In this document: one piece after another, positions 6,620 through 24,222 of the stretch
How the letters are laid out: each line of letters begins with the position of its first letter
How positions within the stretch are numbered: position 1 is the first letter of the stretch
DNA from: a virus
UHGV virus genome: UHGV-0214148
DNA: 64,000 nucleotides
Direction: 5' to 3' (one strand)
The notes under the pieces: generated by a model
What the model saw: the letters and a program-made list of their open reading frames with translations, nothing else
Told to the model about the DNA's origin: nothing
The model's database searches: none
Translations under genes and position numbers: made by a program

Positions 6620-6632
6620 GGAGAATTTTTTG

Positions 6633-10908: not shown

Positions 10909-13900
10909 ATGCCGAGAGAAGACGCGGCGCAGTTTAACGGTACGCTAAGCACAGCGACGTACCCTAACCGATTTAACGTGGTCATTCCGCCTGAAGGACC
11001 TTTTTATCGTATCGGATTAAAACTCACAGTAGCCGACGATACCGCGCCTAACGGACGTCGTACTCTGATTGAGGGGCTGGACTACTATTTAGGCTATTAC
11101 TTTAAAGAACTCGCCGAAGCTGAACAAGATCAGATTTATGGCGGGTTTATGTTGCTTACTGCAACAGAAATCGAATATGAGATTTTAGGGGTAGCACGGC
11201 AGTATCGTGTACCGCAATCTGAAATCGGGAAGTTCTTAGTTCGTACTGACCTGAAAGACCCACGTAACGTGGACTGGTCGGAGTTAATGGCGTACGCGCC
11301 GGTTATTCAACCAATCGACCCCCCTGCTAACTTAGAAGAAGCTATTCTGAGGGACGAGGTCGTTAAAGCGTTGAACGATATCCGCAAGAAAATCATTCAG
11401 CGTTCAACAGAGTTAGATGCGGCCTTCACCGAAGTCACTAACCTTATTTACGAGAACGGTAAAAAGATTTTCGATGAAGAACTATACCAACACCACCTTA
11501 ATCCTAACGCTCACCAGTATACGACCAATGACGTTGGGGCCCTTCCGGTTTTAGGACGTGCTGTTGACGCTACAAAAGCGTTTGGGTTGACAATTGACCA
11601 ACTGGCTACGCTGATGGGTTCGGCGGGCATTGAGCAATCAGACGTTGAACAGCTAATGGGTGAAGCCCTCGGTACCGTTTACGGTCGTTGGGGCACCACG
11701 AACGGTAACGAACTAACGTTTAAAACACCGGGTGGACACATCATCAGCATCCGTGGTGATAAGTGGTTAATTACCTCCCCGCAACCGTTAGTGATTAAAG
11801 CAGACCAAGACAACAACGAATCCGGTTTGGCGGTTGAGTTTAGTGCGGGACTGAATACGCTTTGGGTACACTCTGGGTCAGAACAGGATGTATTAGCACC
11901 GGTCTATAACTCTGTGTATCTCGTTACACCAGAAATGGTGAACATGTACCTGACGTCTGTAACGTTACTTGAAGCGAATGCCTATTTCAAACCGTCAGAC
12001 ACCGTAAAACCGTACGGTACAGCGAAGCAGTCTAACCCACTAACGTTGAACGCGAATATTCCCACAGCAACCGAGTCGGTTTATGGGGTGTTTTCGATTA
12101 CGAATATCGCAACCTCTGTAGCGCTAGGCACTGCTATTTCCCAAAAGGCTGTGACCGAGTTAAAAAACCGGTTGGACTTGTACGTTGACGACGACTACAC
12201 GGTTAACGGTAGAGGGTTTGTTAAGACAGGCGACAACATGGTGTTAACCTTAACGAAGGCCGATTTCGGTATCGATAAGATGAATAACACCACACCCATC
12301 GCTAAACCGGTAACAAAAGCATTAGCGAACGTGCTGAAAAATAAAAGTTTGAAGGTACACACGCACACTACCGCTGATTTGGATAATGTCCCGATTGGTA
12401 GCGCAACAGTGGACGGTATCTTACAGCTGTGGGATGCGATTGATACCACGAATGATAAAGCCGTCACATCACGCCAAGGGTGGCTGTTCGCAAAAGAGAT
12501 TAAGAAGGTCTCTGATAAACTGAATACCCTCTTGCCCGCATGGACAACGGCCGGGAGCAAATATACCAACAATTCGATATTGCCGATCTTGTCGATGGGT
12601 AATTACGAAGGTTATGGTAAAAACATGGATGCGCTCCAGATGGTTATAGGGGTACAACAAGGTAAGCTTTATGCTTTAATTAGCTCTAAATCCGCCCTTC
12701 CGGGAACCGAGGGTATTTATTACGCCGTTGCCGGGTTAAAAAACGACAAAAGTCTTGGTGAAATTTACAAAACAACGTTCCGTTATAAGCCGAAAGGGTT
12801 AGAGACGAATTATCCTGGGGTGGAACTAAAAGAAATTACCGTTACGGGTACCGAAGCATTTATAGCGAAAGGCAGCGACGATAATTACTATTTAGTTAAA
12901 CTGAACGGTTCAATGGATTACACCAAACATACCGATGTCAGGTTGGTAACTTTCTCAGAATTTGTTTCAGAAACAACATGGGAATTTGTGCCGAATATGT
13001 TCATGGATCGTGTGGTCATAGCCGATAACGGCGTCTATGTTTTGCGTACGATGCTAATGGCCGATCTGAAAAACAATAGTCTGGTGGACTACATTAAGGA
13101 TACTCCGCAACCTATGTTCCGTGTTGGGTTATTGCGACTTAATAAAACCGATCGGTTTGAACAGGTTGATTTAAGCTCTACACGAAAAATCGGTAAGTGT
13201 GCCGATTTGGTTGAACCTGGCGCGTTCGATGTAGATAATCCGAATACGAAGCGTCTTGCCTACTTCACTGCGGAAGGCAAAGCGTTGTGGACAGTGAATT
13301 TACAATTAACTAGAGGGGTGTCAAGATGGATAACGCCCGTTGTTAAGGACGGTAATCTGTTAACCGTCGGCGTGTCTGGCGTTTGTCTTGGTTTTTCTTC
13401 AACGAAAGGTACCACATTCGGGCCATGGAATGGTGCTTATCGTCTCGACCTATTAACCGGGGAGGTTGGGTTAGAGACAACTAACATCTTCCCAATCAAA
13501 ATCGATACTACAGGTTGCTACTTAAAAGACGGAACAAAAATAGAGCTGAAATGGAAATGGGCTACTCGAAGTTCTGGCTATATGGCCGACAATAGAATCT
13601 GTGTCGGTGATATGGTTTATTCTTGCTGCTGTTCGACAGAAAAACAACTTGCACCGTCTCTCCATTACCAGAAACTCCCAGAAGGAGTTAGTTATCTGGA
13701 CTATGTTAAGTTGAGTGCGGGGTATGAGGGGCAATCTACGTTTGAAAATCGGATAAACCCTGTGGTGGGTTCGGTGTGGAAACCGTCTATGACTCTACCA
13801 TTGTTCTTCCCAGGAACAAACAAAGTATGGCTTAAACATCAAAAAACGGCTTATTTCATTGAAGCCGAATATGATAAAGATACGACTTATGGTTATCCTG

Positions 13901-16095
13901 GATACGGCGGGTTTGGACCAACATCCCGCCGTGTTGAAAAAAAAGCGAACGAATACGGCGTATTGACAAATATACCGCTGGTTGTTACGCCAGACATACC
14001 GAAAGGTCTACTAGATGGGGCTTACTTTATCGGTGCTGAAAGTAAACCATGTAAAGTTGTTTACGGTACCACTACGGTGGCTAGTGATCGGTTGTCTATC
14101 GATGCGGCAGAATGGGCGAAGTTGACTAATATTGTTCAGTCCAGCCAGTTCTCTGGGGCTTCTAACGGCAACGCCTATGAGCGGATTAGCGTAGCTAAGA
14201 CCAAAAAGAACAACTACAGTTTGTCCTTTTGGGTGCTTGGTCAAACGATGTCTGGTGGTCCGCTTTGTATCGCGATAGTGAGTCTTATCTATAAAGACAC
14301 TGACGGGGTAAATAAGTTTGCTTTTTACTTCTTTCAGGTAAAACCGACTATAACCAACGGGGTCATAAGGTTCGTTAGTTCGGAAGCGAGAATGATGACG
14401 TTCAGGGAAAAAATGGCCAGTAACGCCATTAATCTCTCACCCACAGCTTTTAATGGTGAACTTAAACAACGCTCCGGTCAAGTTTTCCTTTATTCGCAAG
14501 ACGGACAAAAGTTCAGATTCTCAATACATAACCTGGTTGGCGGGAATCTTGTAGGATCAGAGATTTCTTTTGCTTTTGGGATAAACTTGACTAAAAAAGG
14601 AGAATGGTTTACCGGCGAAATTCATCGGGCGTGGGGCTATACGTATACGCTGAATAATACATCTGAAGTCTATATACCCGATCTCTCGGGCATCGCGCTA
14701 TTGACTTGTAACTCGGAAGATTTAAACGAGTTGTATCTCGGTGGCGAACAGTATAGAATCTCTGATTTGTTTAACAAAAAATATACTGTTATCGATAAGA
14801 TTATTATTGGCGGCGTACAAACACAGAGCGGTTGGAATTTCTATCTGACGGAGGAAACCGAGTTAAGTTTTGGAAATAAAAGATATACCGTTCCAAGATG
14901 GTCCGTTGATTTAAGCGATGAATTCCCGACTAATCACGCTAACCAGACATTCTACGTTTATGCTGAAGTGGTCGGTTCTACTGCCCAATACCGCATCGGT
15001 TTAGAGCAGTTAGCTGATACCTCGTCGAGACTGTTTGTTGGGACAGTAACCACTGATTCGAACCGTATTACGGATATCAGTATCGATAAAGTAAAACGGT
15101 TAGGTCGTGTAAAAGAGCTGGAAAATCATGCCTCGGTTGTTGATCAGCACGATGTGGCGCAGGCGTTCGACAGGAAAACTGGTCCACTATTAACAGTGGT
15201 TAATAAACCCGTTAAAGCCATTACAGCATCTGCGAGCAAGGGTGCTGGGTATGTCGATGGCCAGAAATGGAATACGTTGTCCGGGATTGCAACGCGGCCC
15301 AGGTTGCCGGTACAGGAAACCTATTCAGGTTATAAAAGTATCAGCAGGGTGGCGTATGAGAACTGCGCTGACCAGTTCTGGCAGAAAGCGGTTGCTGCGA
15401 ACGTTGCAGCGGCTACTGCTTCTGAGAACAAACAAGCAGCAACCGCGAACATGAAGTGGCTGGGCGCGTATACGAGACCGACTACCGGTGCGAGTGTGTG
15501 TCTGGTACTAAGTCTACGTGTTAAAGTACCTGGTAATCCCGGCACCGCTAATCGTAGACTGAAAATCAGGCTTGCGGCTCCGACAGGTATAACTGAAGTT
15601 CGTTACGGGTTAAATCAGTCTGGCGGTACGATGGCTGAACAGACAGTAACGTTGACTGCCAACAGTTATCTGGAAAAAGAGCACGCCGGATTTAAGCCAG
15701 CCGAAGAAGTTCGTGTTCATGCTACCTTTGTCATTCCAAAAAATGAATACGAGAGTTACCGTACGAAGTTCGGTGCGGTTCAGTTGATTGACGTTGAATC
15801 GAACACTGTCATTAAACAGACAGATATCGACACACCGTTTTTCGTGTACACCGCCACGGAGCAAGCGGCACAATCTGGTTTGGTGTATAAAGCGGTTAAG
15901 AGTCAGTTTCGTCAACTCCCGGCTCAACCTGTCGTCATTGTAACTGATGGACAGACAGGGACTACGCCACCGGTGAAAACCTCGTTTGCTGACGGGACAT
16001 TAACGGTCTACGTGGCAACCACGTACGACGCGGTTAACCCAGCACAAACACGCGATATCGACAAGCTCCAGTTCAATCTTATGTTTACATCTTAA
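10909..16095 (+). CDS. tail fibre protein (1728 aa)
   Basis: AGGAG SD; N-terminal PPEGPFY...GLDY motif; fibre motif GIDKMNNTTPIAKPVTKAL...KVHTH. Confidence 0.7.
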   Translation: MPREDAAQFNGTLSTATYPNRFNVVIPPEGPFYRIGLKLTVADDTAPNGRRTLIEGLDYYLGYYFKELAEAEQDQIYGGFMLLTATEIEYEILGVARQYRVPQSEIGKFLVRTDLKDPRNVDWSELMAYAPVIQPIDPPANLEEAILRDEVVKALNDIRKKIIQRSTELDAAFTEVTNLIYENGKKIFDEELYQHHLNPNAHQYTTNDVGALPVLGRAVDATKAFGLTIDQLATLMGSAGIEQSDVEQLMGEALGTVYGRWGTTNGNELTFKTPGGHIISIRGDKWLITSPQPLVIKADQDNNESGLAVEFSAGLNTLWVHSGSEQDVLAPVYNSVYLVTPEMVNMYLTSVTLLEANAYFKPSDTVKPYGTAKQSNPLTLNANIPTATESVYGVFSITNIATSVALGTAISQKAVTELKNRLDLYVDDDYTVNGRGFVKTGDNMVLTLTKADFGIDKMNNTTPIAKPVTKALANVLKNKSLKVHTHTTADLDNVPIGSATVDGILQLWDAIDTTNDKAVTSRQGWLFAKEIKKVSDKLNTLLPAWTTAGSKYTNNSILPILSMGNYEGYGKNMDALQMVIGVQQGKLYALISSKSALPGTEGIYYAVAGLKNDKSLGEIYKTTFRYKPKGLETNYPGVELKEITVTGTEAFIAKGSDDNYYLVKLNGSMDYTKHTDVRLVTFSEFVSETTWEFVPNMFMDRVVIADNGVYVLRTMLMADLKNNSLVDYIKDTPQPMFRVGLLRLNKTDRFEQVDLSSTRKIGKCADLVEPGAFDVDNPNTKRLAYFTAEGKALWTVNLQLTRGVSRWITPVVKDGNLLTVGVSGVCLGFSSTKGTTFGPWNGAYRLDLLTGEVGLETTNIFPIKIDTTGCYLKDGTKIELKWKWATRSSGYMADNRICVGDMVYSCCCSTEKQLAPSLHYQKLPEGVSYLDYVKLSAGYEGQSTFENRINPVVGSVWKPSMTLPLFFPGTNKVWLKHQKTAYFIEAEYDKDTTYGYPGYGGFGPTSRRVEKKANEYGVLTNIPLVVTPDIPKGLLDGAYFIGAESKPCKVVYGTTTVASDRLSIDAAEWAKLTNIVQSSQFSGASNGNAYERISVAKTKKNNYSLSFWVLGQTMSGGPLCIAIVSLIYKDTDGVNKFAFYFFQVKPTITNGVIRFVSSEARMMTFREKMASNAINLSPTAFNGELKQRSGQVFLYSQDGQKFRFSIHNLVGGNLVGSEISFAFGINLTKKGEWFTGEIHRAWGYTYTLNNTSEVYIPDLSGIALLTCNSEDLNELYLGGEQYRISDLFNKKYTVIDKIIIGGVQTQSGWNFYLTEETELSFGNKRYTVPRWSVDLSDEFPTNHANQTFYVYAEVVGSTAQYRIGLEQLADTSSRLFVGTVTTDSNRITDISIDKVKRLGRVKELENHASVVDQHDVAQAFDRKTGPLLTVVNKPVKAITASASKGAGYVDGQKWNTLSGIATRPRLPVQETYSGYKSISRVAYENCADQFWQKAVAANVAAATASENKQAATANMKWLGAYTRPTTGASVCLVLSLRVKVPGNPGTANRRLKIRLAAPTGITEVRYGLNQSGGTMAEQTVTLTANSYLEKEHAGFKPAEEVRVHATFVIPKNEYESYRTKFGAVQLIDVESNTVIKQTDIDTPFFVYTATEQAAQSGLVYKAVKSQFRQLPAQPVVIVTDGQTGTTPPVKTSFADGTLTVYVATTYDAVNPAQTRDIDKLQFNLMFTS

Positions 16096-16135
16096 CGCCA
16101 CGGGACAAGGACGTCTCGGATTAAGGAGAGTGGCC

Positions 16136-17335
16136 ATGGCCTCCATTGTATACCAATACCCTTTAGATTTAACGGGAAGCCTAACCTCTAACGCCGTGGA
16201 GCGTCAGGTTACGTTAGGTACAGGTAAAGTTAACCGTGCGTTTGCTTTTCCTGATGGACCGTTTTATGCTGATACGTTCCGCTTGCGGGTTGCTAACCGA
16301 CCCGATGCGACGTATGAGCGCGGAACGGACTATGAGTTGATTTTTGCACACCCGGCTTACGAGAAATTGACGAAGAACCGGGAAGTGGTAATGGCGGTTG
16401 TTGTAACGAACACCGCGATTCCGACCGATATCACGGTATCGGCGCAAGTAGTCGGGGGCCCGCAGTCGGCAAACGTGACTGCGATAGAACAGGCGATTGC
16501 TGAGTTGAATCTCGATAATCGAACTGTTGGCTTTAAAGACTTGCGAAATGTTCCTGATACATTTCCGTCGGCACCGACGTATAAAGACGTCGGCGATATT
16601 TACGGCTTCGAATATATCATTACAGTGCTCGCTGGCATTAAAGATGCGATAACGGCGGGCGATGCTGTACAGCTTGAGAACATCAAAGCGATTCTCGAAA
16701 GCCTGAAAAACGATTTCCTGGACGCACTGAACGCGCACATTAACGCCACGGGTAACGTCCACCATCTGGACATTCATCAGGTTAACGGGTTAACGGAAAC
16801 GGAGATCCGTGCACTGATTCGTGACGTACAGTCTGCCATCGATGCAACGATTGCCGATATCAATGCATTGAAGAAAGCGGACGAAGCGTTAGGAAAACGT
16901 ATTGATGCTGTTGTCAAATCTTTGGAAGCGTGGAACGACCAACTTAACGTCGTTGCACAAAACTACCAGAAAATGGCACTGGCAATGGCGAACCTAAACT
17001 CGTTAGTGTTACAGTTACAGAAAAATATCAACGATCTGAGCACCAAACTCAACCAAGCGATTCAACGTATTGCTGCGTTAGAACAGCGGGGTAATGAGTC
17101 CGATCAGAAAATTGATAAACTGCAACAAAACCTGGATGCGCTTAAACAGCAGGTTAATAATAACACGAACGCAATCAGTCAGGCGAACCAGAACCTGCAA
17201 AACCATATTGCGGCAGATAACCCACACACAGGCTATCTCCACAAGAAATACGGTGGTGTGGTTCAGGCTCCAGTACACGTTAACGCTAACTTGACGTCCC
17301 GTGATGACGTTCAGGCAGAAGCGGGTACGAAATAA
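16136..17335 (+). CDS. short coiled-coil tail-fibre-like protein (399 aa)
   Basis: AAGGAG 7 nt upstream of ATG 16136 (track GTG 16130 is too close to the SD); N-terminal FPDGPFY...GTDY motif; long heptad-like Q/L/N-rich segment. Confidence 0.6.
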   Translation: MASIVYQYPLDLTGSLTSNAVERQVTLGTGKVNRAFAFPDGPFYADTFRLRVANRPDATYERGTDYELIFAHPAYEKLTKNREVVMAVVVTNTAIPTDITVSAQVVGGPQSANVTAIEQAIAELNLDNRTVGFKDLRNVPDTFPSAPTYKDVGDIYGFEYIITVLAGIKDAITAGDAVQLENIKAILESLKNDFLDALNAHINATGNVHHLDIHQVNGLTETEIRALIRDVQSAIDATIADINALKKADEALGKRIDAVVKSLEAWNDQLNVVAQNYQKMALAMANLNSLVLQLQKNINDLSTKLNQAIQRIAALEQRGNESDQKIDKLQQNLDALKQQVNNNTNAISQANQNLQNHIAADNPHTGYLHKKYGGVVQAPVHVNANLTSRDDVQAEAGTK

Positions 17336-17402: not shown

Positions 17403-17798
17403 ATGGCGATCAGTGTTAAAAATGTACGTGACCGAATCACCAACGTAGAGAACCAAATGGCAACTGGCCCACGTGTTGATCCGCAAGTTGCGTCGAAAGC
17501 ACATAATGCCGCCGACACTTTTTCGGGTTGGACGCCAAGTCGGTTAGACTGCGGGGGAAGTTGCAGCTGGACGTGCTCAAACGGCTGTACGCACGGCTGT
17601 ACGAGTTGTTCGGGCACCTGTACGTCAGTATGTGTAGGTAGCTGCTCCTCTGCGTGCGGTAACCAGTGTACTGGATGTAGTTCAACATGTTCCGGCGGCT
17701 GTTCAGGTTGCAGTGGGACCTGTGGGGGTGCTTGCTCGGGCCGTTGTTCTACGGGTTGTTCTGGTGCTTGCTCTGGTGGCTGTTCTGGCCCAACCTAA
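17403..17798 (+). CDS. Cys/Gly/Ser-rich precursor-like protein 1 (131 aa; about 50-aa leader plus 21-Cys core)
   Basis: AGGA 6 nt upstream of ATG 17403; leader ISVKNVRDRI...; core starts DCGGSCSWTCS and continues with Cys every 3-4 residues. Confidence 0.6.
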   Translation: MAISVKNVRDRITNVENQMATGPRVDPQVASKAHNAADTFSGWTPSRLDCGGSCSWTCSNGCTHGCTSCSGTCTSVCVGSCSSACGNQCTGCSSTCSGGCSGCSGTCGGACSGRCSTGCSGACSGGCSGPT

Positions 17799-17808
17799 GA
17801 GGTGAAAA

Positions 17809-18207
17809 ATGGCAATTGGATTACCTGCGCTACAAGCGCGGCTAAATAACATTGACAACACTGCATTGAAGAATACGGGTGCAGTGCAAAACTATATTCG
17901 TGGGAAAGCGACGAACAACGCAGACTTATTCGGTGGACAAGCTCGCAACCATTACGACTGTGGTGGGAGCTGTAGCTGGACCTGTTCGAGCTGTTCTGGT
18001 GGTTGTACAGGGAACGCATCAGGCGGCTGTGGTTCTTCGTGTTCTGCAAACTGTGTATCAGGTTGCAGCGCAGGCTGTAGCGGATGTTCGAATACATGTT
18101 CTGGTGGCTGCTCAGGAAGCTGTACGGGGAGTTGTTCTAACTCGTGTGTGGGAAACTGTTCTTCAGGCTGTTCGGGCAGTTGTTCTGGTGGGTGTTCTGG
18201 GAGGTAA
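17809..18207 (+). CDS. Cys/Gly/Ser-rich precursor-like protein 2 (132 aa; 20-Cys core)
   Basis: GAGGTG SD; same core start HYDCGGSCSWTCS; paralogue of the previous gene. Confidence 0.6.
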   Translation: MAIGLPALQARLNNIDNTALKNTGAVQNYIRGKATNNADLFGGQARNHYDCGGSCSWTCSSCSGGCTGNASGGCGSSCSANCVSGCSAGCSGCSNTCSGGCSGSCTGSCSNSCVGNCSSGCSGSCSGGCSGR

Positions 18208-18209
18208 TT

Positions 18210-18416
18210 GTGATTAGCCTTAAGAACCTTCGTGATCGATTAGTAACAGCGGAAGGGTATATTACGACCGCTAACGCAAACAACTATATTGCAAACCAGG
18301 GCACCGTGTCTTCAACCAATAACCTTGCCGGTTTACCTTTAAGCCATTATAACTGTAACGGCGGATGTAGCTGGTCGTGTAGCGGTAGCTGTAGTAAAGG
18401 TGCGGGGGGAAGGTAA
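18210..18416 (+). CDS. Cys-rich precursor-like protein 3 (68 aa, short core with 5 Cys)
   Basis: GTG 18210 with GGGAGG 5 nt upstream, directly after the previous stop; leader ISLKNLRDRL resembles the leader of peptide 1; core HYNCNGGCSWSCSGSCS. Confidence 0.5.
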   Translation: MISLKNLRDRLVTAEGYITTANANNYIANQGTVSSTNNLAGLPLSHYNCNGGCSWSCSGSCSKGAGGR

Positions 18417-18565
18417 CTAAGCCCTCCAGTGGTAGTATGTCTATTACGCAATAACCGAGTTAATCGTACGGGTTTACTGCTGAGTTTCAAGTTACCGGTA
18501 GGCAATGGCGCGGTGGGTTCTATACCCTGAATGTCCGTTTGACCGTGAAATAATTGGAGCAATCA

Positions 18566-19453
18566 ATGAAGAATGATTTACATTTAGCGTACAAAACAAT
18601 TTTCAATCATCCACTTCACATTTCTTCCCCTGATTCCGTACGTGCACACTTAGCAGATGAAGTTCGTCTGCTGACTCAGTTGCCGGGCGAATGGCCTAAA
18701 GTGCGCGGACGTTTCTTTACCGATCGTAAAAACTATCGTGTAGAAAATACGTTTAAGATTCGTGATCTGACGGCAGAAAGTGTGGTGGTCTTTACCGGTG
18801 ACTCCGAGTTGCGTGGTAAACTGGTTGCGGGTAAATATTTCTTTAGTGACGGGATTTTGAATAACTCCGTAGATATGGAATTGTTCTTTACCCCATTTGA
18901 AGAAATGGGCGCAAAACCGGTTGCCCGTCGTTGGTGGTCACCGGATTACTTAGGCTCGTTCCCGTATTTCTTTACCCTGGTAACACCAGAAACGAAGAAC
19001 TATTTCGATACGGAATCGTATATCGAAATTGAAGGGTACGAAGCGTTAGGGATTAATTGCTTAGCGGATTTAATGGCGTATAGCTATAAGTTCGTGTGGG
19101 ATCGTGAACGTTCCGTGTGGGTTGCCCTGACAGATGAACACGAAATCACAAAACGCATCCGTAAGCCTTGGATGCAGCATTTGATTCAAACACGTGTTGG
19201 CGAGCATCCGTCAACAGAAGCGGATCTGGCAAAACTCGTTAGTTTCTTAATGACGAAAGTCACGTTAACTAACGAAGAGAAAGCAGCAGTGTCGGCGGTG
19301 TTGGACCGTAACGTAACGTTGGCGGATTTAGAACGTTTAAATGTCCGTTATAAAGACCTTAACCGTATTTTGGAAGCGTATAACTCTCCATTCTTGTTAA
19401 CCCCTGGTGCTAACGTAGACGACGATCCTTTGTTCGCCATTGATTATATTTAA
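18566..19453 (+). CDS. hypothetical protein (295 aa) in the radical-SAM cassette
   Basis: GGAG SD upstream of ATG 18566; no recognisable motif; sits between the precursor-like genes and the radical-SAM genes. Confidence 0.55.
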   Translation: MKNDLHLAYKTIFNHPLHISSPDSVRAHLADEVRLLTQLPGEWPKVRGRFFTDRKNYRVENTFKIRDLTAESVVVFTGDSELRGKLVAGKYFFSDGILNNSVDMELFFTPFEEMGAKPVARRWWSPDYLGSFPYFFTLVTPETKNYFDTESYIEIEGYEALGINCLADLMAYSYKFVWDRERSVWVALTDEHEITKRIRKPWMQHLIQTRVGEHPSTEADLAKLVSFLMTKVTLTNEEKAAVSAVLDRNVTLADLERLNVRYKDLNRILEAYNSPFLLTPGANVDDDPLFAIDYI

Positions 19454-19474: not shown

Positions 19475-20398
19475 ATGACAACCAATGCAGAACCAAGGTT
19501 ATCGAATCGTTTATACGATAAACCCACCGTATTGTCCGTAGTCGCTACGTCCAAGTGCAACCTGGATTGTAGCTTCTGCGGTGGAGCCTATTACATGAAT
19601 CGTGAAGATTCTCCGCGAGAGTTTCAACGTGAGCGAATTTTGGAAGCGCTGGAAGCTAATCCAACCATTACCGAAATTCAGTGGACGGGTGGTGAGCCAT
19701 TACTGGCAACCCGTAAAATTGAGGCGTTTGTTGACGAATTAAAAGTGATTCGTCCAGAACTCAAACACCAGTTGTATACCAATGGCTTAAAGATGCGTAA
19801 ATCGCATCTCCCGTTGCTAAAACAGTTTGACAATGTCTACGTTAGCATCGATGGGTTTAAGTCGTCTGAGCGCCCGTTTATGCGCTTTATTGACGAAGGC
19901 TGTTACGAAGCACTGGAAACGATCTACGAGCTGGATAATGTCCAGACTTGGGGTGTCCTGACACGGGACCGTTTAGGGGACAAACGCTGGCACGAAGATA
20001 TTATTCAGCTGCACAGCGCGATTTACCATTACGGTTTCCGTGCAATGACGTTACTCTTAGATGCGAAAATGCCAAAACCTTTATCGCCCGACCACGTCAT
20101 GAACTTTATTTACGGCTACTATCAGGTTCAGGATAACATTGAACGACTGAATGTAGTAAATAGTCGTGAATGCGGCTTTACGGTAAGTAAAGTGTTTGAA
20201 GAAGGGTGTAACGTTTGCAGCGAAAGTCTTTGGATTAATGCAGACGGTGGTGAGCACCAACTCCAGAATGCACCTAACGTTCTGGAATCGGGATGTAACC
20301 AACTGGCCTTCTCTATCGGTGTAGAGGCGTACGAATATATTCGTCGCGTAGTGATGGCAGGGCGTAATAGAGGGGCGGCAAATGAGTCAAGTAAATGA
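19475..20398 (+). CDS. radical SAM enzyme (307 aa)
   Basis: N-terminal CNLDCSFC (CxxxCxxC) cluster and TGGEPLL SAM-binding motif; extra C-terminal cysteines (CNVC...C). Confidence 0.8.
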   Translation: MTTNAEPRLSNRLYDKPTVLSVVATSKCNLDCSFCGGAYYMNREDSPREFQRERILEALEANPTITEIQWTGGEPLLATRKIEAFVDELKVIRPELKHQLYTNGLKMRKSHLPLLKQFDNVYVSIDGFKSSERPFMRFIDEGCYEALETIYELDNVQTWGVLTRDRLGDKRWHEDIIQLHSAIYHYGFRAMTLLLDAKMPKPLSPDHVMNFIYGYYQVQDNIERLNVVNSRECGFTVSKVFEEGCNVCSESLWINADGGEHQLQNAPNVLESGCNQLAFSIGVEAYEYIRRVVMAGRNRGAANESSK

Positions 20399-21704
20399 AT
20401 TCCCTAAGCAGTTAACGTATCAGATCGTAACCAACCTTTCGTGTAACCTGGACTGCGAATATTGTTACGAACGTAAGTACCCGCGTAACAACAAAGCGGC
20501 GGATATTGTTGATTTCTTACACGCCTGTTTTGAACGTGATAAAAACGAACCGAATGTTGAAGTTATTATCGACATTATCGGTGGTGAGCCGTTCATGCAG
20601 CCTAAACTGCTGCTGGCTGCGTTTGAAACCGCTGAGCAGTTGTGTAAAGAACACAACCGACCGTTTATGTTTAGTATCTCCACGAACGGAACGCTGTTAG
20701 ATCGTCCGTTGAACCGTGAGATTGTAGAACGTTGGAAAGACAAACTTTCGGTTGGGGTTTCGATTGACGGCTTACCTGAGTCCCATGACCGTTATCGTAT
20801 CTTCACAACAACACGCCAGGGTTCTTACGAAGCCGCAGTACGTGGCTATAACTACTTAAAAGAGGTTGGCATTGCAGAGCTCGGCGTAAAAGCAACCTTT
20901 ACGTTAGAAACGCTGCCGTTCTATGCTGCGGGGATGAAGTCATTAATTGACATTACTGGCGGTGGGACAATTTCTGGAAACGTAACTTTCGAAGACGTTA
21001 TGCCACGTAGCATGGCGACGTCAATCGCTTTACAGATGATGGATGTGATAGATTACTGGGTTGAGAAAGGATTACACACCAACCCACGTAATATCTTATC
21101 GCACATCATTCCAGAAGGGTTGGATTTCGATACGATTTGGGAACCGAACTGGCGTGACCAGTTACTGTATAATGACACCGTACGGTTGAACCCAGAACGT
21201 TTACGTCCGTTCTGTGGGACGTTAACGCACATGACGTGCTTAGGGTTTGACCGTAAGATCTTTGGCTGTAACCGCTTTATGTCAACGGTAACGTCGCGTT
21301 CTGCGGTGTTTGAGTTGGTAGGTCGGGAATTCGTCAGTCTGGACAACGGTAAATTGTTAGAAGAGATTCAAACGCAATATACCAACTACCCAGAGACCTG
21401 TTTAGGTTGTCCGATGAAACACGCTTGTGGTAGCTGCGCGGCTGCTTCTTACGAGAACGGGGAAGGAACGTTAGAAGACCGTAAAGCGTATCACGCTGAA
21501 CGACGTCAGTGCGGCTGGACGACAGCGAAACTGATGGTGGCGGAATACTGGAAACAGAAGATGGGTACGACGTCAGCAAAAGCGTTCCATGACACGAGCA
21601 TGTGTTATTGCCCACGCTGTGTTCGTGAACGTGCCCAAAAGGAAAAATTATTAAGAGAAGCCAAAGATGAAACCAATTCTGATCAACAATATTACGAAGC
21701 GTAG
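20382..21704 (+). CDS. radical SAM enzyme with SPASM-type C-terminal domain (440 aa)
   Basis: N-terminal CNLDCEYC and GGEPF motifs; C-terminal CLGCPMKHACGSC plus further Cys pairs; start overlaps the upstream gene by 17 nt. Confidence 0.8.
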   Translation: MSQVNEFPKQLTYQIVTNLSCNLDCEYCYERKYPRNNKAADIVDFLHACFERDKNEPNVEVIIDIIGGEPFMQPKLLLAAFETAEQLCKEHNRPFMFSISTNGTLLDRPLNREIVERWKDKLSVGVSIDGLPESHDRYRIFTTTRQGSYEAAVRGYNYLKEVGIAELGVKATFTLETLPFYAAGMKSLIDITGGGTISGNVTFEDVMPRSMATSIALQMMDVIDYWVEKGLHTNPRNILSHIIPEGLDFDTIWEPNWRDQLLYNDTVRLNPERLRPFCGTLTHMTCLGFDRKIFGCNRFMSTVTSRSAVFELVGREFVSLDNGKLLEEIQTQYTNYPETCLGCPMKHACGSCAAASYENGEGTLEDRKAYHAERRQCGWTTAKLMVAEYWKQKMGTTSAKAFHDTSMCYCPRCVRERAQKEKLLREAKDETNSDQQYYEA

Positions 21705-22239
21705 AATTCGACTTCTGGATAAGTTTCTGGAAAACAGTAAGCTATTCGGTTGTTATGTGGTGATTAACGGTGAAGATTTTACCGATGACGTAAAACGCTT
21801 ACTGATTCGTCACGGCGTGACTGTAATCATCCCAATGTACTGCACCGAACTTACTGACCTGTCGGTCGCGGAAATTGAAAAACGTAACCCAGGGTTTGAA
21901 GAACGGGTATTGGATTTCCCACGTCACAAAATTGCGTTTCTACGCCGCTCTTTAAGCGAACCCAGCGCAGAATCTATCACTGTGTTGGCATTGTCCTTCC
22001 CCGGCATTACTATCTTCGCAACACGTAACCCGAACTCACCGATTGATGGGTTTTACGATGAGCGGGAGAAATTTAATAGCGTGATTTTTCCTGAGCTAAC
22101 GCCAGAAGAATGCCAGGGTATCCGTATCGATTGGGAATCTGACTTCGACACAAGATTCCGTCATATCGATTTTGAACTGTTAATCGAATTAGGGTTGATT
22201 AAAGGAGACGATGAATGTCTGCTACTGGTGAAGGCTTAA
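21667..22239 (+). CDS. hypothetical protein (190 aa), translationally coupled to the radical-SAM genes
   Basis: ORF overlaps the upstream gene by 38 nt; no motif recognised. Confidence 0.5.
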   Translation: MKPILINNITKRRIRLLDKFLENSKLFGCYVVINGEDFTDDVKRLLIRHGVTVIIPMYCTELTDLSVAEIEKRNPGFEERVLDFPRHKIAFLRRSLSEPSAESITVLALSFPGITIFATRNPNSPIDGFYDEREKFNSVIFPELTPEECQGIRIDWESDFDTRFRHIDFELLIELGLIKGDDECLLLVKA

Positions 22240-22886
22240 CGAAAGAAGAAATCCGTCGCCGTTATTTTGCGCACGATTTACCGATCGACCGTCATGGTAA
22301 CTACATGGAGAAAATCGGTAGCGAAGATCACGGCCGTACAGGGTTTTGTGCGTTACTGCACTATAAGCTGATTGATGGGATGTCTGATCGCGAAGCATTG
22401 GAACAAATGCGTAACTACGACATGTCTGAAATCGAAGCACGGTTTACGCTACAGAAAGCGAAAGACTTTGTTAACGACACGTTGGGGATTGACCTGGAAG
22501 AAATTCGTGCAGGTTTACGTTCCACGGTGCGGTACATCTTTACCGATGTTCAGAAAATTCTAAGCGCTTTGGAATTCCGTTATCAGGATGCACGCTATGC
22601 TGAGATTCAGGTAGGTGATTTCACTTTCCAGGCAGATGAGAAGTCACAGGTAGCACTGAGTCGTTATATCCAGTCAGAAACTGCGCCAGCGTATTGGTTA
22701 ACGGCTAACAACACCCGTATCGAACCGTTTACGTTAGAACAGTGCAAGACGTTGCTGGCAGCAATCGTTGAGCGTGATCAAAGACTACACCACGCAATGT
22801 CTGAGCAGAAAAGAGAAGTCAGGGCTTGGGCTGAAGCACGTGATTACGATTCGATAAAAGCGTTTGCGTTAGAGCAAGGGCTGTAA
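22215..22886 (+). CDS. hypothetical protein (223 aa)
   Basis: AAAGGAG 7 nt upstream of ATG 22215; overlaps the previous gene by 25 nt; last gene before the bidirectional terminator. Confidence 0.55.
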   Translation: MSATGEGLTKEEIRRRYFAHDLPIDRHGNYMEKIGSEDHGRTGFCALLHYKLIDGMSDREALEQMRNYDMSEIEARFTLQKAKDFVNDTLGIDLEEIRAGLRSTVRYIFTDVQKILSALEFRYQDARYAEIQVGDFTFQADEKSQVALSRYIQSETAPAYWLTANNTRIEPFTLEQCKTLLAAIVERDQRLHHAMSEQKREVRAWAEARDYDSIKAFALEQGL

Positions 22887-22911
22887 TCGACAGCGAAAAA
22901 AAAAAACAGTA

Positions 22912-22951
22912 TACCTACCTCCCGTAATAGGAGGTAGGTATTTTTATTTTT
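22912..22951. terminator. bidirectional intrinsic terminator at the strand switch
   Basis: 11-bp stem TACCTACCTCC/GGAGGTAGGTA, A11 run upstream, T-rich run downstream. Confidence 0.7.
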
Positions 22952-22953
22952 TC

Positions 22954-23484
22954 TTAGGACGTAAAACCGTCCAGCTCACCGTTGGTGGTGGCCAGGTCAA
23001 TACGATTATCAACAACCTTCGGCGTAATTACGAAAGTTGCCATTACACCTGGCTTATAACGGAGGTTCTTTTCAGTAACGGTACACGTTACCGTACGCAG
23101 AGTGACGCTATCGTGTTCGTCTTTCTGGTCTTCGGTGGTGTACTCAACGTCACCAGGTGCGATAGAGTCGTCAGGTTTTACTTTATTGATGTAAAACTGT
23201 AATCGGTCGCGTAGTTCGTTTTCTCCAGTCCAGAGAGCCAAATCGTCCGTTACCTCAATGCGTCCGACAACGCCAGGTTCCAGACGATCGTAATGCAGTT
23301 CGATTGCGCCTTTAAAATTTTCAGACTCTGTACGTGCGGTCATGGTAACTTTGGTATTTTTATCGCCCTTTTCAAGAGCGACAGGTTGACCAAAAGTTAC
23401 CTCTTTATCAGTGACCTGATGCGGTAGCTCTGTGTTAGCAGCATTATAAAGCGCAACTAACATCATCTGGTTAGTAGCTGCCAT
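22954..23484 (-). CDS. hypothetical protein, paralogue family A (176 aa)
   Basis: Shares NFKG..E.HY.RL and TNGELDGFT blocks with 23552..24082. Confidence 0.6.
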   Translation of the reverse strand: MAATNQMMLVALYNAANTELPHQVTDKEVTFGQPVALEKGDKNTKVTMTARTESENFKGAIELHYDRLEPGVVGRIEVTDDLALWTGENELRDRLQFYINKVKPDDSIAPGDVEYTTEDQKDEHDSVTLRTVTCTVTEKNLRYKPGVMATFVITPKVVDNRIDLATTNGELDGFTS

Positions 23485-23551: not shown

Positions 23552-24082
23552 TTACTCTTTAGGCGCTGGTGCGGTGAAGCCATCCAGTTCACCTTCCAAA
23601 CCGTTCAGTGCTACTTTCTCAATAGCTGGAGGGGTAACTTTATACGTCGCAACAGTACCTGGCAGGAACTTCAAGTGGCCAGCCACAACCGTTACCACGT
23701 AAATGGTTTTGCCTTCTTCTTCACGAGAGATAGTTTGCAGGTCGTTTTCACCGAACTCGTCATCGGTGTACCCTTTCTCAGCCATGGCTGCGTTAACTTT
23801 CGCCAGGATTTTCGTCGGTGAATCGAAATCGGTAGTAGGTGCAGTTACTTCAACTTCACCAACGATGTCGCAGGAAAGACGAGTATAGTGGAATTCTTTC
23901 TCGCCTTTGAAGTTCTGGCTTTCTGCCTTGGCGGTCAGAGTAATTTTAGTGTTGCGGCCAGCTTCTCCGGTGAACTCAGCGACAGCACTAAAATTAACAT
24001 CATTTACAGTCAGCTTAGAAGCAGTTTGGTTGTTTTTAGCAATTACAATCTCGATAAGCTGCTGTTGAAAAGTTTTAGCCAT
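23552..24082 (-). CDS. hypothetical protein, paralogue family A (176 aa)
   Basis: Start moved to ATG 24082 (MAKTF...), which has a GAGGT SD and gives the same length as its paralogue; the track start is 24118. Confidence 0.55.
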   Translation of the reverse strand: MAKTFQQQLIEIVIAKNNQTASKLTVNDVNFSAVAEFTGEAGRNTKITLTAKAESQNFKGEKEFHYTRLSCDIVGEVEVTAPTTDFDSPTKILAKVNAAMAEKGYTDDEFGENDLQTISREEEGKTIYVVTVVAGHLKFLPGTVATYKVTPPAIEKVALNGLEGELDGFTAPAPKE

Positions 24083-24222
24083 TGTTTTTACCTCGTAAGT
24101 AGTATGGGTGGTTTGCATAGTATTGTTCGGATTATAGAAGTGTTGTTAATAGTTATGACAGACAGCAGTAAGGGTTGTCTGTAAAATTATTATTTTTTAA
24201 CTTTTTATAGAAGGGTGAAAAC

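What the first reader, a model, noticed from the sequence alone, without database searches (positions are those of the whole stretch)
17403..18416. Three tandem precursor-like genes share a leader and an invariant core junction
The three proteins (131, 132 and 68 aa) share a leader flavour (ISVKNVRDRI / ISLKNLRDRL) and an almost identical junction (HYDCGGSCSWTCS / HYNCNGGCSWSCS) before cores of 21, 20 and 5 Cys. A conserved leader plus a variable core is the hallmark of RiPP precursor families. The Gly/Ser/Cys composition also recalls microcin B17-type azole precursors, yet no YcaO-like cyclodehydratase was recognised, which would make the chemistry unusual. The DNA is a low-complexity TGT/TGC-GGC-AGC repeat landscape prone to expansion and contraction.
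Basis: seen in the sequence. Interest (0 to 1): 0.85.

Follow-up and report, generated by a model that had tools for sequence, protein, structure and literature searches.

The report
Radical-SAM-matured cysteine-repeat tail-fibre proteins
Three small phage genes encode proteins with a cysteine at every fourth residue; they always sit beside dedicated radical-SAM enzymes in tail-fibre gene clusters, so they are most likely enzyme-cross-linked fibre parts, not free antibiotic-like peptides.

Summary
Three adjacent + strand genes (17403-17798, 17809-18207, 18210-18416) encode paralogues of 131, 132 and 68 aa. They share a ~48-aa N-terminal module and the junction C-x-G-x-C-S-W-x-C-S. The long ones continue with a strict Cys-x-x-x repeat (21 and 20 Cys). 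The short one has 4 Cys, not 5.

The window is an SPN3US-like jumbo phage. The genes are under purifying selection, and reference genomes annotate them in the wrong frame or not at all.

They belong to the CXXX-repeat radical-SAM target family, known only from bioinformatics. In the viral collection, every untruncated close relative of the downstream SPASM radical-SAM enzyme has a CXXX gene beside it.

The "conserved leader, variable core" reading is not supported: the core is at least as conserved as the leader. No protease, exporter or YcaO enzyme is present.

In T7-like, lambda-like and other phages the same module forms the C-terminal end of true tail-fibre proteins, in the tail-fibre gene position.

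Best reading: fibre-associated proteins whose Cys ladder is cross-linked, probably by thioethers. The enzyme set is two radical-SAM enzymes, a 295-aa protein of unknown fold and a cluster-less radical-SAM-like protein. Virion presence and chemistry are untested.

The parts
10909..16095 (+). 1728-aa baseplate/tail-fibre candidate (orthologue of SPN3US gp168); upstream context
   Evidence: phrog_7449 over the full length. SPN3US gp168 is a tail protein resembling phiKZ gp131 at the baseplate periphery (PMC5105663) and was detected in virions (PMC5694885 Supp. Table 1).
16130..17335 (+). 401-aa coiled-coil virion structural protein (orthologue of SPN3US gp167), immediately upstream of C1
   Evidence: phrog_2163 'virion structural protein', E 5e-103. 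gp167 was detected in SPN3US virions with 70% coverage. It precedes the CXXX genes in all 18 jumbo-phage loci.
17346..17391 (+). Stable hairpin followed by a U-rich tract between the 401-aa gene and C1 (terminator- or attenuator-like)
   Evidence: MFE -21.4 kcal/mol, z -4.18, 0 of 200 shuffles as stable. A hairpin at the same place in SPN3US has a different sequence and z -3.65.
17403..17798 (+). C1: 131-aa CXXX-repeat protein (48-aa N-terminal module, junction LDCGGSCSWTCS, 21 Cys)
   Evidence: phrog_6085 E 1.5e-40
17809..18207 (+). C2: 132-aa CXXX-repeat protein (junction HYDCGGSCSWTCS, 20 Cys)
   Evidence: phrog_6085 E 1.4e-39; TIGR04114 19.4 bits against a cut-off of 20
18210..18416 (+). 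C3: 68-aa short paralogue. It has the same N-terminal module and junction (HYNCNGGCSWSCSGSCS) but no repeat tail; 4 Cys.
   Evidence: phrog_6085 E 2.3e-24. A short third paralogue is also present in the distant cassette L006 and in CR5/Wellington-type phages.
18566..19453 (+). p299 (295 aa from the ATG at 18566; the ORF opens at a TTG at 18554): accessory protein specific to this system, with no known fold
19475..20398 (+). rSAM1: 307-aa radical-SAM enzyme (CNLDCSFC cluster motif, GGEPLL), with no N-terminal RRE domain
   Evidence: PF04055 E 6e-14. Closest solved relative is SkfB 6efn, with residues 20-156 matching 111-244. Conserved motifs are in alignment A5. It is fused to the rSAM2 type in L011.
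20382..21704 (+). rSAM2: 440-aa radical-SAM/SPASM enzyme, the universal partner of CXXX genes
   Evidence: Best NCBIfam hits are PapB ranthipeptide maturase (1.2e-33) and TIGR04115 CXXX-repeat maturase (6.5e-33, full length), both below cut-off. Closest solved relative is CteB 5wgg, residues 19-180 matching 105-266. C21/C25/C28 and eight further Cys are invariant. Co-occurrence with CXXX genes.
21667..22239 (+). p190: 190-aa protein with a predicted radical-SAM-core-like partial barrel and no CxxxCxxC motif; overlaps the end of rSAM2 by 38 nt
22215..22886 (+). 223-aa DUF4376 protein, last gene of the operon in jumbo phages (possible fibre-assembly helper)
   Evidence: PF14301 E 4.8e-11. Weak tail-fibre PHROG hits. 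Present in all 18 jumbo loci. The SPN3US orthologue gp161 is not in virions.
22911..22941 (.). Bidirectional intrinsic terminator closing the operon
   Evidence: 12-13 bp stem with T-runs on both strands

Best explanation
C1, C2 and C3 are phage members of the Cys-x-x-x-repeat radical-SAM target family. They are made late in infection, together with the baseplate and tail-fibre proteins encoded just upstream.

Proposed steps:
1. Their conserved ~48-aa N-terminal module and the invariant C-x-G-x-C-S-W junction dock them onto a dedicated maturation set encoded just downstream. The set is p299 (unknown fold, probably the substrate-handling subunit), rSAM1, the SPASM enzyme rSAM2 and the cluster-less radical-SAM-like p190.
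2. The enzymes modify the ladder of ~20 cysteines. The most likely product is sulfur-to-carbon (thioether) cross-links, giving a rigid, protease-resistant rod of small rings or covalent links between chains.
3. The N-terminal module is not cut off, and the protein is not exported.
4. The matured proteins are built into or onto the tail fibres as a distal element, possibly as a long-long-short trio. This would match other phages, where the same module is the C-terminal end of the tail-fibre protein itself.

Shown here: the gene family, purifying selection, the strict enzyme-substrate gene linkage, the fusions to fibre proteins and the tail-fibre gene position.

Inferred: the chemistry, the role of each accessory protein, and virion incorporation of the three proteins of this phage.
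For: Family and selection.

Enzyme linkage: 35 of 35 untruncated IMG/VR loci with rSAM2 relatives at E <= 1e-18 have a same-strand CXXX gene within 3 kb, against 0 of 35 weaker hits.

Conserved cassette: CXXX + p299-type + rSAM1-type + rSAM2-type recurs across jumbo, T7-like and lambda-like phages, and rSAM1 is fused to rSAM2 in L011.

Tail-fibre position:
- After the Phage_T7_tail fibre gene in T7-like L003, L011 and L013.
- Directly after gpJ in lambda-like L012.
- After the gp167/gp168 fibre candidates in the window and 17 related jumbo loci.

Fusions: L033 has 456 aa with QLDLKAPL..A.LTG repeats before the CXXX domain. The N-terminal part of L034 hits 'long tail fiber protein distal subunit' at 2e-10, and that of L038 hits tail fibre and minor tail PHROGs at about 1e-10. 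The N-terminal domain of the podophage CXXX proteins is homologous to a domain inside the fibre protein L013_526 (2e-9).

Pre-core motif: it occurs verbatim (DADTLDGQHGSYY) in annotated tail-fibre proteins that lack CXXX.

Enzyme relatives: both radical-SAM enzymes are closest to thioether-forming peptide maturases (PapB, CteB, SkfB) and lack their N-terminal RRE domains.

Non-virion helpers: SPN3US orthologues of p299, rSAM1, rSAM2, p190 and DUF4376 are absent from purified virions while the flanking fibre proteins are present, as expected for enzymes and helpers.

Bacterial homologues carry Tat-type signals next to tatA/tatC, which fits export of an already cross-linked protein.
Against: - No direct evidence that C1-C3 are in virions. 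The published SPN3US proteome could not detect them because the ORFs were not in the search database (gp166 is annotated in the wrong frame).
- C1-C3 have only a 48-aa N-terminal module, not a recognisable fibre domain. That module matches no other protein of the window, so how they would attach is unknown.
- In L006 the cassette is not visibly next to tail genes within 8 kb.
- The chemistry is inferred from distant homology. rSAM2 scores 115-117 bits against cut-offs of 340-350. The cores lack the Asp/Glu acceptor that PapB uses.
Confidence: 0.6

Rival explanations
1. Classical RiPP natural product. The ~48-aa module is a leader removed by a host or unlinked protease. The cross-linked Cys-rich cores are released at lysis as free peptides with antimicrobial, signalling or anti-defence activity.
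For: Precursor-like size, three tandem paralogues, a conserved N-terminal module and adjacent radical-SAM/SPASM enzymes related to ranthipeptide and sactipeptide maturases. The pre-core module travels with the CXXX domain in all architectures, as a recognition sequence would. In L006 there is no obvious tail-gene context.
Against: No peptidase or exporter in the operon. The core is not more variable than the leader. In many phages the module is internal to long fibre proteins, so it is not a removable N-terminal leader there. Small T7-like genomes place it in the fibre slot.
Confidence: 0.15
2. Assembly-only factor. The modified CXXX proteins act as a transient scaffold or chaperone for folding or trimerising the neighbouring fibre proteins, and are not retained in the virion.
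For: They occupy the position where tail-fibre assembly genes usually lie (searches show 'tail fiber assembly' genes after comparable fibres). The other operon members are non-virion proteins.
Against: In other phages the CXXX domain is covalently part of the fibre polypeptide. An investment of 3-4 enzymes to modify a disposable helper seems unlikely (inference).
Confidence: 0.1
3. Metal- or iron-sulfur-binding cysteine-rich proteins (metallothionein-like). The thiols stay free and coordinate metal ions, either within a fibre or as a sulfur/iron reservoir for the radical-SAM enzymes.
For: About 26% Cys with small residues between them. Tat signals in bacterial homologues are typical of cofactor-bearing proteins.
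Against: This does not explain the strict co-inheritance with a SPASM peptide-maturase relative or the need for two radical-SAM enzymes plus accessory proteins.
Confidence: 0.08
4. Spurious ORFs created by low-complexity GC-rich DNA; not genes.
For: Several frames and the antisense strand are open across the region, and reference genomes annotate different frames.
Against: pN is far below pS only in the Cys frame analysis. All 45 Cys columns are conserved. Each start has a ribosome-binding site. The non-repetitive N-terminal module is in frame. The family is found in hundreds of contigs.
Confidence: 0.01

Closest known systems
CXXX-repeat peptide modification system of bacteria (NCBIfam TIGR04114/TIGR04117 target, TIGR04115 radical-SAM maturase, TIGR04119 maturase, TIGR04116 associated protein; Pfam PF27846). 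As far as I could find, it is defined only by comparative genomics.
   Same: Target with Cys at every fourth residue, next to a SPASM radical-SAM enzyme. The window's rSAM2 aligns to TIGR04115 over its full length (6.5e-33). A gut-phage rSAM (L004) matches the bacterial enzyme at 1e-76. A profile of C1-C3 retrieves named bacterial targets.
   Different: Phage targets have no Tat signal; they carry a fibre-type pre-core module or whole fibre domains instead. The accessory proteins differ: p299, rSAM1 and p190 replace TIGR04119 and TIGR04116 (hhalign probability 0.8%; phmmer not significant). Scores fall below the curated cut-offs. The genomic setting is the tail-fibre module.
PapA/PapB (freyrasin) ranthipeptide system
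   Same: A string of C-x3 motifs processed by a SPASM radical-SAM enzyme. PapB is the top NCBIfam hit of rSAM2 (1.2e-33). PapB links Cys sulfur to the beta-carbon of Asp in CXXXD/E motifs (PMC10739248).
   Different: The cores here have no Asp or Glu. The score is 116.8 bits against a cut-off of 340. There are ~20 repeats rather than six, a second radical-SAM enzyme and two further proteins. The product is probably a protein domain rather than a free peptide.
Sactipeptide/SCIFF maturases CteB and SkfB
   Same: Closest solved relatives of rSAM2 (CteB 5wgg, 5.8e-14) and rSAM1 (SkfB 6efn, 3.1e-6); both form Cys-to-carbon thioethers.
   Different: The phage enzymes lack the ~100-residue N-terminal RRE domain (alignments start at CteB residue 105 and SkfB residue 111). 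Similarity is confined to the radical-SAM core.
Tail fibre plus downstream tail-fibre assembly/chaperone gene (for example Celeribacter phage P12053L gp55/gp54)
   Same: The same gene order: fibre with the ...DA(D)xLxGQxxSYY motif, then a distal domain, then one or more helper genes. Helpers are not in the virion.
   Different: The distal domain is a Cys ladder, and the helpers are radical-SAM enzymes that would act catalytically and covalently rather than as folding chaperones.
Microcin B17-type azole (LAP) precursors
   Same: Gly/Ser/Cys-rich composition.
   Different: No YcaO cyclodehydratase or dehydrogenase is present. There is a strict period-4 Cys pattern. The enzymes present are radical-SAM.

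Membership tests
CXXX-repeat radical-SAM target (TIGR04114/TIGR04117, PF27846) | Tandem repeat of period four with Cys at the first position | tested here: met
   Spacing is 4 in 17/20 (C1) and 16/19 (C2) intervals; 0 of 100,000 shuffles reach this.
CXXX-repeat radical-SAM target (TIGR04114/TIGR04117, PF27846) | Score above the curated model cut-off | tested here: not met
   TIGR04114 gives 19.4 bits (C2) and 14.5 bits (C1) against a cut-off of 20, and no hit for C3. PF27846 is not in the local Pfam copy. A profile of C1-C3 does retrieve PF27846-tagged and NCBI-named members.
CXXX-repeat radical-SAM target (TIGR04114/TIGR04117, PF27846) | Adjacent TIGR04115-family radical-SAM maturase | tested here: inconclusive
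   rSAM2 aligns to TIGR04115 over positions 3-345 of 359, but at 114.7 bits against a cut-off of 350. It is homologous to a bona fide member at 4e-22, bridged by a gut-phage enzyme at 1e-76.
CXXX-repeat radical-SAM target (TIGR04114/TIGR04117, PF27846) | Accessory proteins TIGR04119 (CXXX_matur) and TIGR04116 (CXXX_rpt_assoc) | tested here: not met
   No NCBIfam hit. hhalign of p299 against the bacterial 302-aa protein gives probability 0.8%. phmmer of all phage accessory proteins against both bacterial proteins is not significant.
RiPP precursor in the classical sense | Gene-encoded precursor next to its modifying enzymes | tested here: met
RiPP precursor in the classical sense | Conserved leader with a more variable core | tested here: not met
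   Core pN is at most leader pN in 5 of the 6 C1/C2 orthologue comparisons (the exception is window vs SPN3US C2, 0.225 vs 0.218). Examples: 0.052 vs 0.116 for SPN3US vs Erwinia phage C1; 0.213 vs 0.232 for window vs SPN3US C1. All Cys are invariant.
RiPP precursor in the classical sense | Leader peptidase and/or exporter in the cluster; leader removed | tested here: not met
   No peptidase or transporter family or fold was found among the operon proteins. In homologues the module is internal to long proteins. Actual cleavage cannot be tested here.
RiPP precursor in the classical sense | RRE (PqqD-like) domain that binds the leader | tested here: inconclusive
   Both radical-SAM enzymes lack the N-terminal RRE region of CteB and SkfB. 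p299 has no detectable structural relative, so a divergent recognition domain cannot be excluded.
PapB-type ranthipeptide | C-x3-D/E motif with an acidic acceptor residue | tested here: not met
   No Asp or Glu within the cores; the only Asp directly precedes the first Cys.
PapB-type ranthipeptide | Maturase scores as PapB family | tested here: not met
   116.8 bits against a cut-off of 340.
Microcin B17-type linear azole peptide | YcaO cyclodehydratase with partner and dehydrogenase | tested here: not met
   No such family among the nine neighbouring proteins.
Phage tail-fibre component | Encoded in the tail-fibre module | tested here: met
   Downstream of the gp167/gp168 orthologues here. 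After the T7-type fibre gene. After gpJ.
Phage tail-fibre component | Sequence homology to fibre proteins | tested here: inconclusive
   Met for homologues. For C1-C3 themselves there is only the short pre-core motif shared with fibres, and no match to other window proteins.
Phage tail-fibre component | Physically present in the virion | not testable with these tools
   The published SPN3US virion proteome used an annotation lacking these ORFs.

The most novel reading that the evidence does not exclude
Many tailed phages (jumbo myoviruses, T7-like podoviruses, lambda-like siphoviruses, gut phages) end their tail fibres in a 'cysteine ladder' domain that dedicated radical-SAM enzymes cross-link covalently. 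This would be the first case of RiPP-type enzymatic maturation of a virion structural protein, and a new kind of fibre tip. In SPN3US-like jumbo phages it has been split off as a conserved long-long-short trio of small proteins that may assemble as a heterotrimer.
Probability: 0.5. Interest if true: 0.85.

Novelty: new variant of a known kind. Interest (0 to 1): 0.72.

Why it matters
In SPN3US-like phages the radical-SAM genes have been read as host-metabolism boosters (PMC6614189). The three cysteine-repeat genes are missing or mis-framed in reference annotations.

The evidence here reassigns the block as one maturation system for fibre-associated proteins. It links RiPP enzymology to phage structural biology. 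It gives the uncharacterised CXXX-repeat family a testable biological role. It points to a chemically unusual, probably very robust adhesin or fibre module that could matter for host range, for phage stability in the gut, and for engineering cross-linked protein rods.

SPN3US is genetically tractable, and existing virion mass-spectrometry data can be re-searched at once.

Tried and rejected
- Pfam gave nothing for C1-C3, p299 or p190. PF27846 is absent from the local copy.
- Ten literature searches found no paper on CXXX-repeat systems, on TIGR04114/04115/PF27846, or on radical-SAM enzymes acting on phage fibres. The TIGRFAMs source paper I recalled was not held.
- No homology of p299, rSAM1 or p190 to the bacterial accessory proteins TIGR04119/04116.
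- The 137-nt spacer after C3 has no significant structure (z +0.36) and is absent from SPN3US, so it was dropped as a regulatory element.
- The sigma-70 promoter scan was at chance level (8 found against 9.8 expected).
- A profile of the pre-core module found no second copy in other window proteins, so I cannot name a docking partner.
- The apparent 'variant cassette' in SPFM9 turned out to be a scrambled database record.
- The Campylobacter phage radical-SAM expansion is unrelated in context.
- No SPN3US prohead-protease (A-x-E) site is visible by eye in C1-C3.
Full report
**What is there**

The window is an SPN3US-like jumbo phage. Megablast matches Seoulvirus genomes at about 72% identity across the radical-SAM genes. 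An IMG/VR contig of 225 kb is 100% identical over the rSAM2 gene (L016).

At the stated coordinates lie three consecutive + strand genes:
- C1: 17403-17798, 131 aa.
- C2: 17809-18207, 132 aa.
- C3: 18210-18416, 68 aa, GTG start.

Each has a Shine-Dalgarno sequence, and C2 and C3 are separated by only 2 nt.

Aligned with their orthologues from SPN3US and Erwinia phage pEa_SNUABM_29, they share an N-terminal module of about 48 residues and an invariant junction (C50, G52, C54, S55, C58, S59, C62). C1 and C2 continue with a Cys-x-x-x repeat. Spacing is exactly 4 in 17 of 20 and 16 of 19 intervals. No composition-preserving shuffle out of 100,000 reaches this. The consensus unit is C-S-G-x, and the cores contain no acidic residue.

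C3 has 4 Cys, not 5.

The DNA is not a clean tandem array. There are only weak 12-nt repeats of 1.9-2.7 copies, and orthologue lengths are stable.

**Are they genes?**

Yes. Between orthologues pN is 0.05-0.25 against a saturated pS of 0.62-0.81, the same regime as the neighbouring enzyme genes. All 21, 20 and 4 Cys columns are conserved. All three proteins hit phrog_6085 (E 1e-40 to 1e-24).

Reference genomes handle them badly. SPN3US annotates only a wrong-frame ORF (gp100 / SPN3US_0166) over C2 and nothing for C1 and C3. The Erwinia phage record annotates antisense ORFs.

The core is not more variable than the leader. The 'conserved leader, variable core' hallmark therefore does not apply.

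**The neighbours**

Upstream are the orthologues of SPN3US gp168 (1728 aa) and gp167 (401 aa). gp168 is a tail protein resembling phiKZ gp131 at the baseplate periphery. Both were detected in virions. A conserved hairpin with a U-tract separates the 401-aa gene from C1.

Downstream, on the same strand up to a bidirectional terminator at 22911-22941, are five genes:
- p299 (295 aa from the ATG at 18566).
- rSAM1 (307 aa).
- rSAM2 (440 aa, SPASM).
- p190.
- A DUF4376 protein.

rSAM2's best family hits are the PapB ranthipeptide maturase and TIGR04115, 'radical SAM peptide maturase, CXXX-repeat target family'. Both align over the full length but score far below the curated cut-offs. Its closest solved relative is the thioether-forming CteB; that of rSAM1 is SkfB. 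In both cases the alignment begins after the N-terminal RRE domain of the reference enzyme. rSAM2 keeps the SAM-cluster cysteines and eight further invariant Cys, as expected for a SPASM enzyme.

No peptidase, exporter or YcaO enzyme is present.

In the published SPN3US virion proteome, gp167-173 are present. gp161-165, the orthologues of DUF4376, p190, the two radical-SAM enzymes and p299, are absent. The CXXX ORFs were not in the search database.

**The family and its enzyme linkage**

A profile of the nine proteins finds 264 relatives. Many are tagged PF27846 (tSAM_targ_Cxxx_rpt). They include bacterial proteins named 'Cys-Xaa-Xaa-Xaa repeat radical SAM target protein' that carry Tat-type signals.

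A Bacteroidales locus shows the canonical bacterial system: target, TIGR04115 rSAM (618 bits), TIGR04119, TIGR04116, tatA and tatC. The phage accessory proteins are not homologous to TIGR04119 or TIGR04116.

A scan of IMG/VR with an rSAM2 alignment returned 73 loci:
- All 35 untruncated loci with E <= 1e-18 carry a CXXX-repeat ORF on the same strand within 3 kb.
- None of the 35 weaker hits, which match the radical-SAM core only, does.

Three architectures appear:
- (A) Jumbo phages: gp167-like, C1, C2, C3, p299, rSAM1, rSAM2, p190, DUF4376.
- (B) A long protein ending in a CXXX domain, plus p299-type, rSAM1-type and rSAM2-type genes.
- (C) rSAM2 alone, plus a protein with an N-terminal CXXX domain.

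A distant phage cassette (L006) reproduces architecture A part by part, including two long and one short CXXX gene. The short third paralogue also persists in CR5/Wellington-type phages, with only 2-3 Cys. In L011, rSAM1 and rSAM2 are fused into one 668-aa protein.

**The tail-fibre connection**

In T7-like contigs the CXXX gene follows the Phage_T7_tail fibre gene and precedes the radical-SAM genes, between the internal-core genes and the terminase (L011, L013, L003). In a lambda-like contig it directly follows gpJ (L012).

The N-terminal domain of the podophage CXXX proteins is homologous to a domain inside the fibre protein itself (2e-9) and to collagen-like fibre pieces.

Long fusion proteins exist:
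- L033: 568 aa, with typical QLDLKAPL..A.LTG fibre repeats.
- L038: 401 aa, collagen-like.
- L034: 267 aa.

Their non-Cys parts hit 'long tail fiber protein distal subunit', 'tail fiber protein' and 'virion structural protein' PHROGs.

The residues before the first Cys read DADTLDGQHGSYYRC..GCSWTC in some members. The same DADTLDGQHGSYY (or DADLLDGQHGSYY) motif occurs in annotated tail-fibre proteins without CXXX domains, just before their distal domain, and is followed there by a 'tail fiber assembly' gene. A profile of the 48-aa pre-core module aligns over most of its length to one of those fibres. It matches nothing else in the window.

**Interpretation**

I conclude that C1-C3 are phage versions of CXXX-repeat radical-SAM targets used as tail-fibre-associated elements. 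Their Cys ladder is most likely converted to thioether cross-links by rSAM2 and rSAM1, with p299 and p190 as system-specific partners.

The Tat signals of bacterial homologues fit a product that is already cross-linked before export (inference).

Still inferred are the chemistry (no acidic acceptor, distant homology), the roles of p299 and p190, the meaning of the long-long-short trio, and virion incorporation in this phage.

**Rivals**

- A true released RiPP (0.15).
- An assembly-only helper (0.10).
- A metal-binding protein with free thiols (0.08).
- Spurious ORFs (0.01, refuted).

**Novelty**

The family is catalogued (NCBIfam, Pfam, PHROGs). I found no experimental work on it and no paper linking it to phage fibres in ten full-text searches. 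The SPN3US-type radical-SAM genes have been described as metabolic helpers.

I rate this a new variant of a known kind. It has a different accessory enzyme set and a new structural setting, and it can be tested directly in SPN3US.

Noticed in passing
L001 (SPN3US NC_027402) 7950-8979; L002 (Erwinia phage pEa_SNUABM_29) 7952-8974: Reference annotations miss or mis-frame the CXXX genes. SPN3US gp100/SPN3US_0166 is a +1-frame ORF over C2, and C1 and C3 are unannotated. The Erwinia record annotates two antisense ORFs. This explains why virion proteomics could not see them.
   Followed up: yes
L010 (LR535907.1, Salmonella phage SPFM9) whole locus: The deposited record (description 'XXX.') looks block-scrambled. 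Translated proteins read as orthologue segments in reversed block order (for example rSAM2 and p299), so its 'variant cassette' is a database artefact.
   Followed up: partly
L017 3563-4483 and L031 3564-4484: Two close relatives of the window phage (93% identity in rSAM2) carry an extra rSAM1-like gene (61% identical to rSAM1) inserted between C1 and C2.
   Followed up: no
window 18417-18565: A spacer of about 140 nt separates C3 from p299 here, against about 25 nt in SPN3US. Its predicted RNA structure is no better than shuffles (z +0.36).
   Followed up: partly
L004 and L005 (gut-phage contigs): All genes contain in-frame stop codons under table 11, including the CXXX protein and the rSAM, yet the protein database entry reads through. 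This indicates a recoded stop codon in that phage.
   Followed up: no
L011 10330-12336: A single 668-aa protein fuses an rSAM1-type and an rSAM2-type domain, showing that the two enzymes work together.
   Followed up: yes
L008 (Bacteroidales MAG) 6001-9732: The bacterial CXXX system is followed directly by tatA and tatC and preceded by DsbD-, superoxide-dismutase- and flavin-reductase-like genes. Its target has a twin-arginine signal.
   Followed up: partly
window 22954-23484 and 23552-24118 (- strand): Two tandem paralogous genes (176 and 188 aa). By synteny the first corresponds to SPN3US gp160, a very abundant head protein of paralogue family B (>300 copies per capsid in PMC5694885).
   Followed up: no
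L001 10031-10825 (SPN3US gp102): The annotated start of SPN3US rSAM1 lies downstream of the CxxxCxxC motif. The stop-to-stop ORF is longer (311 codons in L018), so the annotated protein is probably N-terminally truncated.
   Followed up: partly
L040-L053 (IMG/VR loci, architecture C): A separate class of phage proteins has the CXXX domain at the N-terminus (29-65 Cys), followed by a conserved ~110-aa C-terminal domain with no PHROG hit. Up to three paralogues occur per locus, with only an rSAM2-type enzyme nearby.
   Followed up: partly
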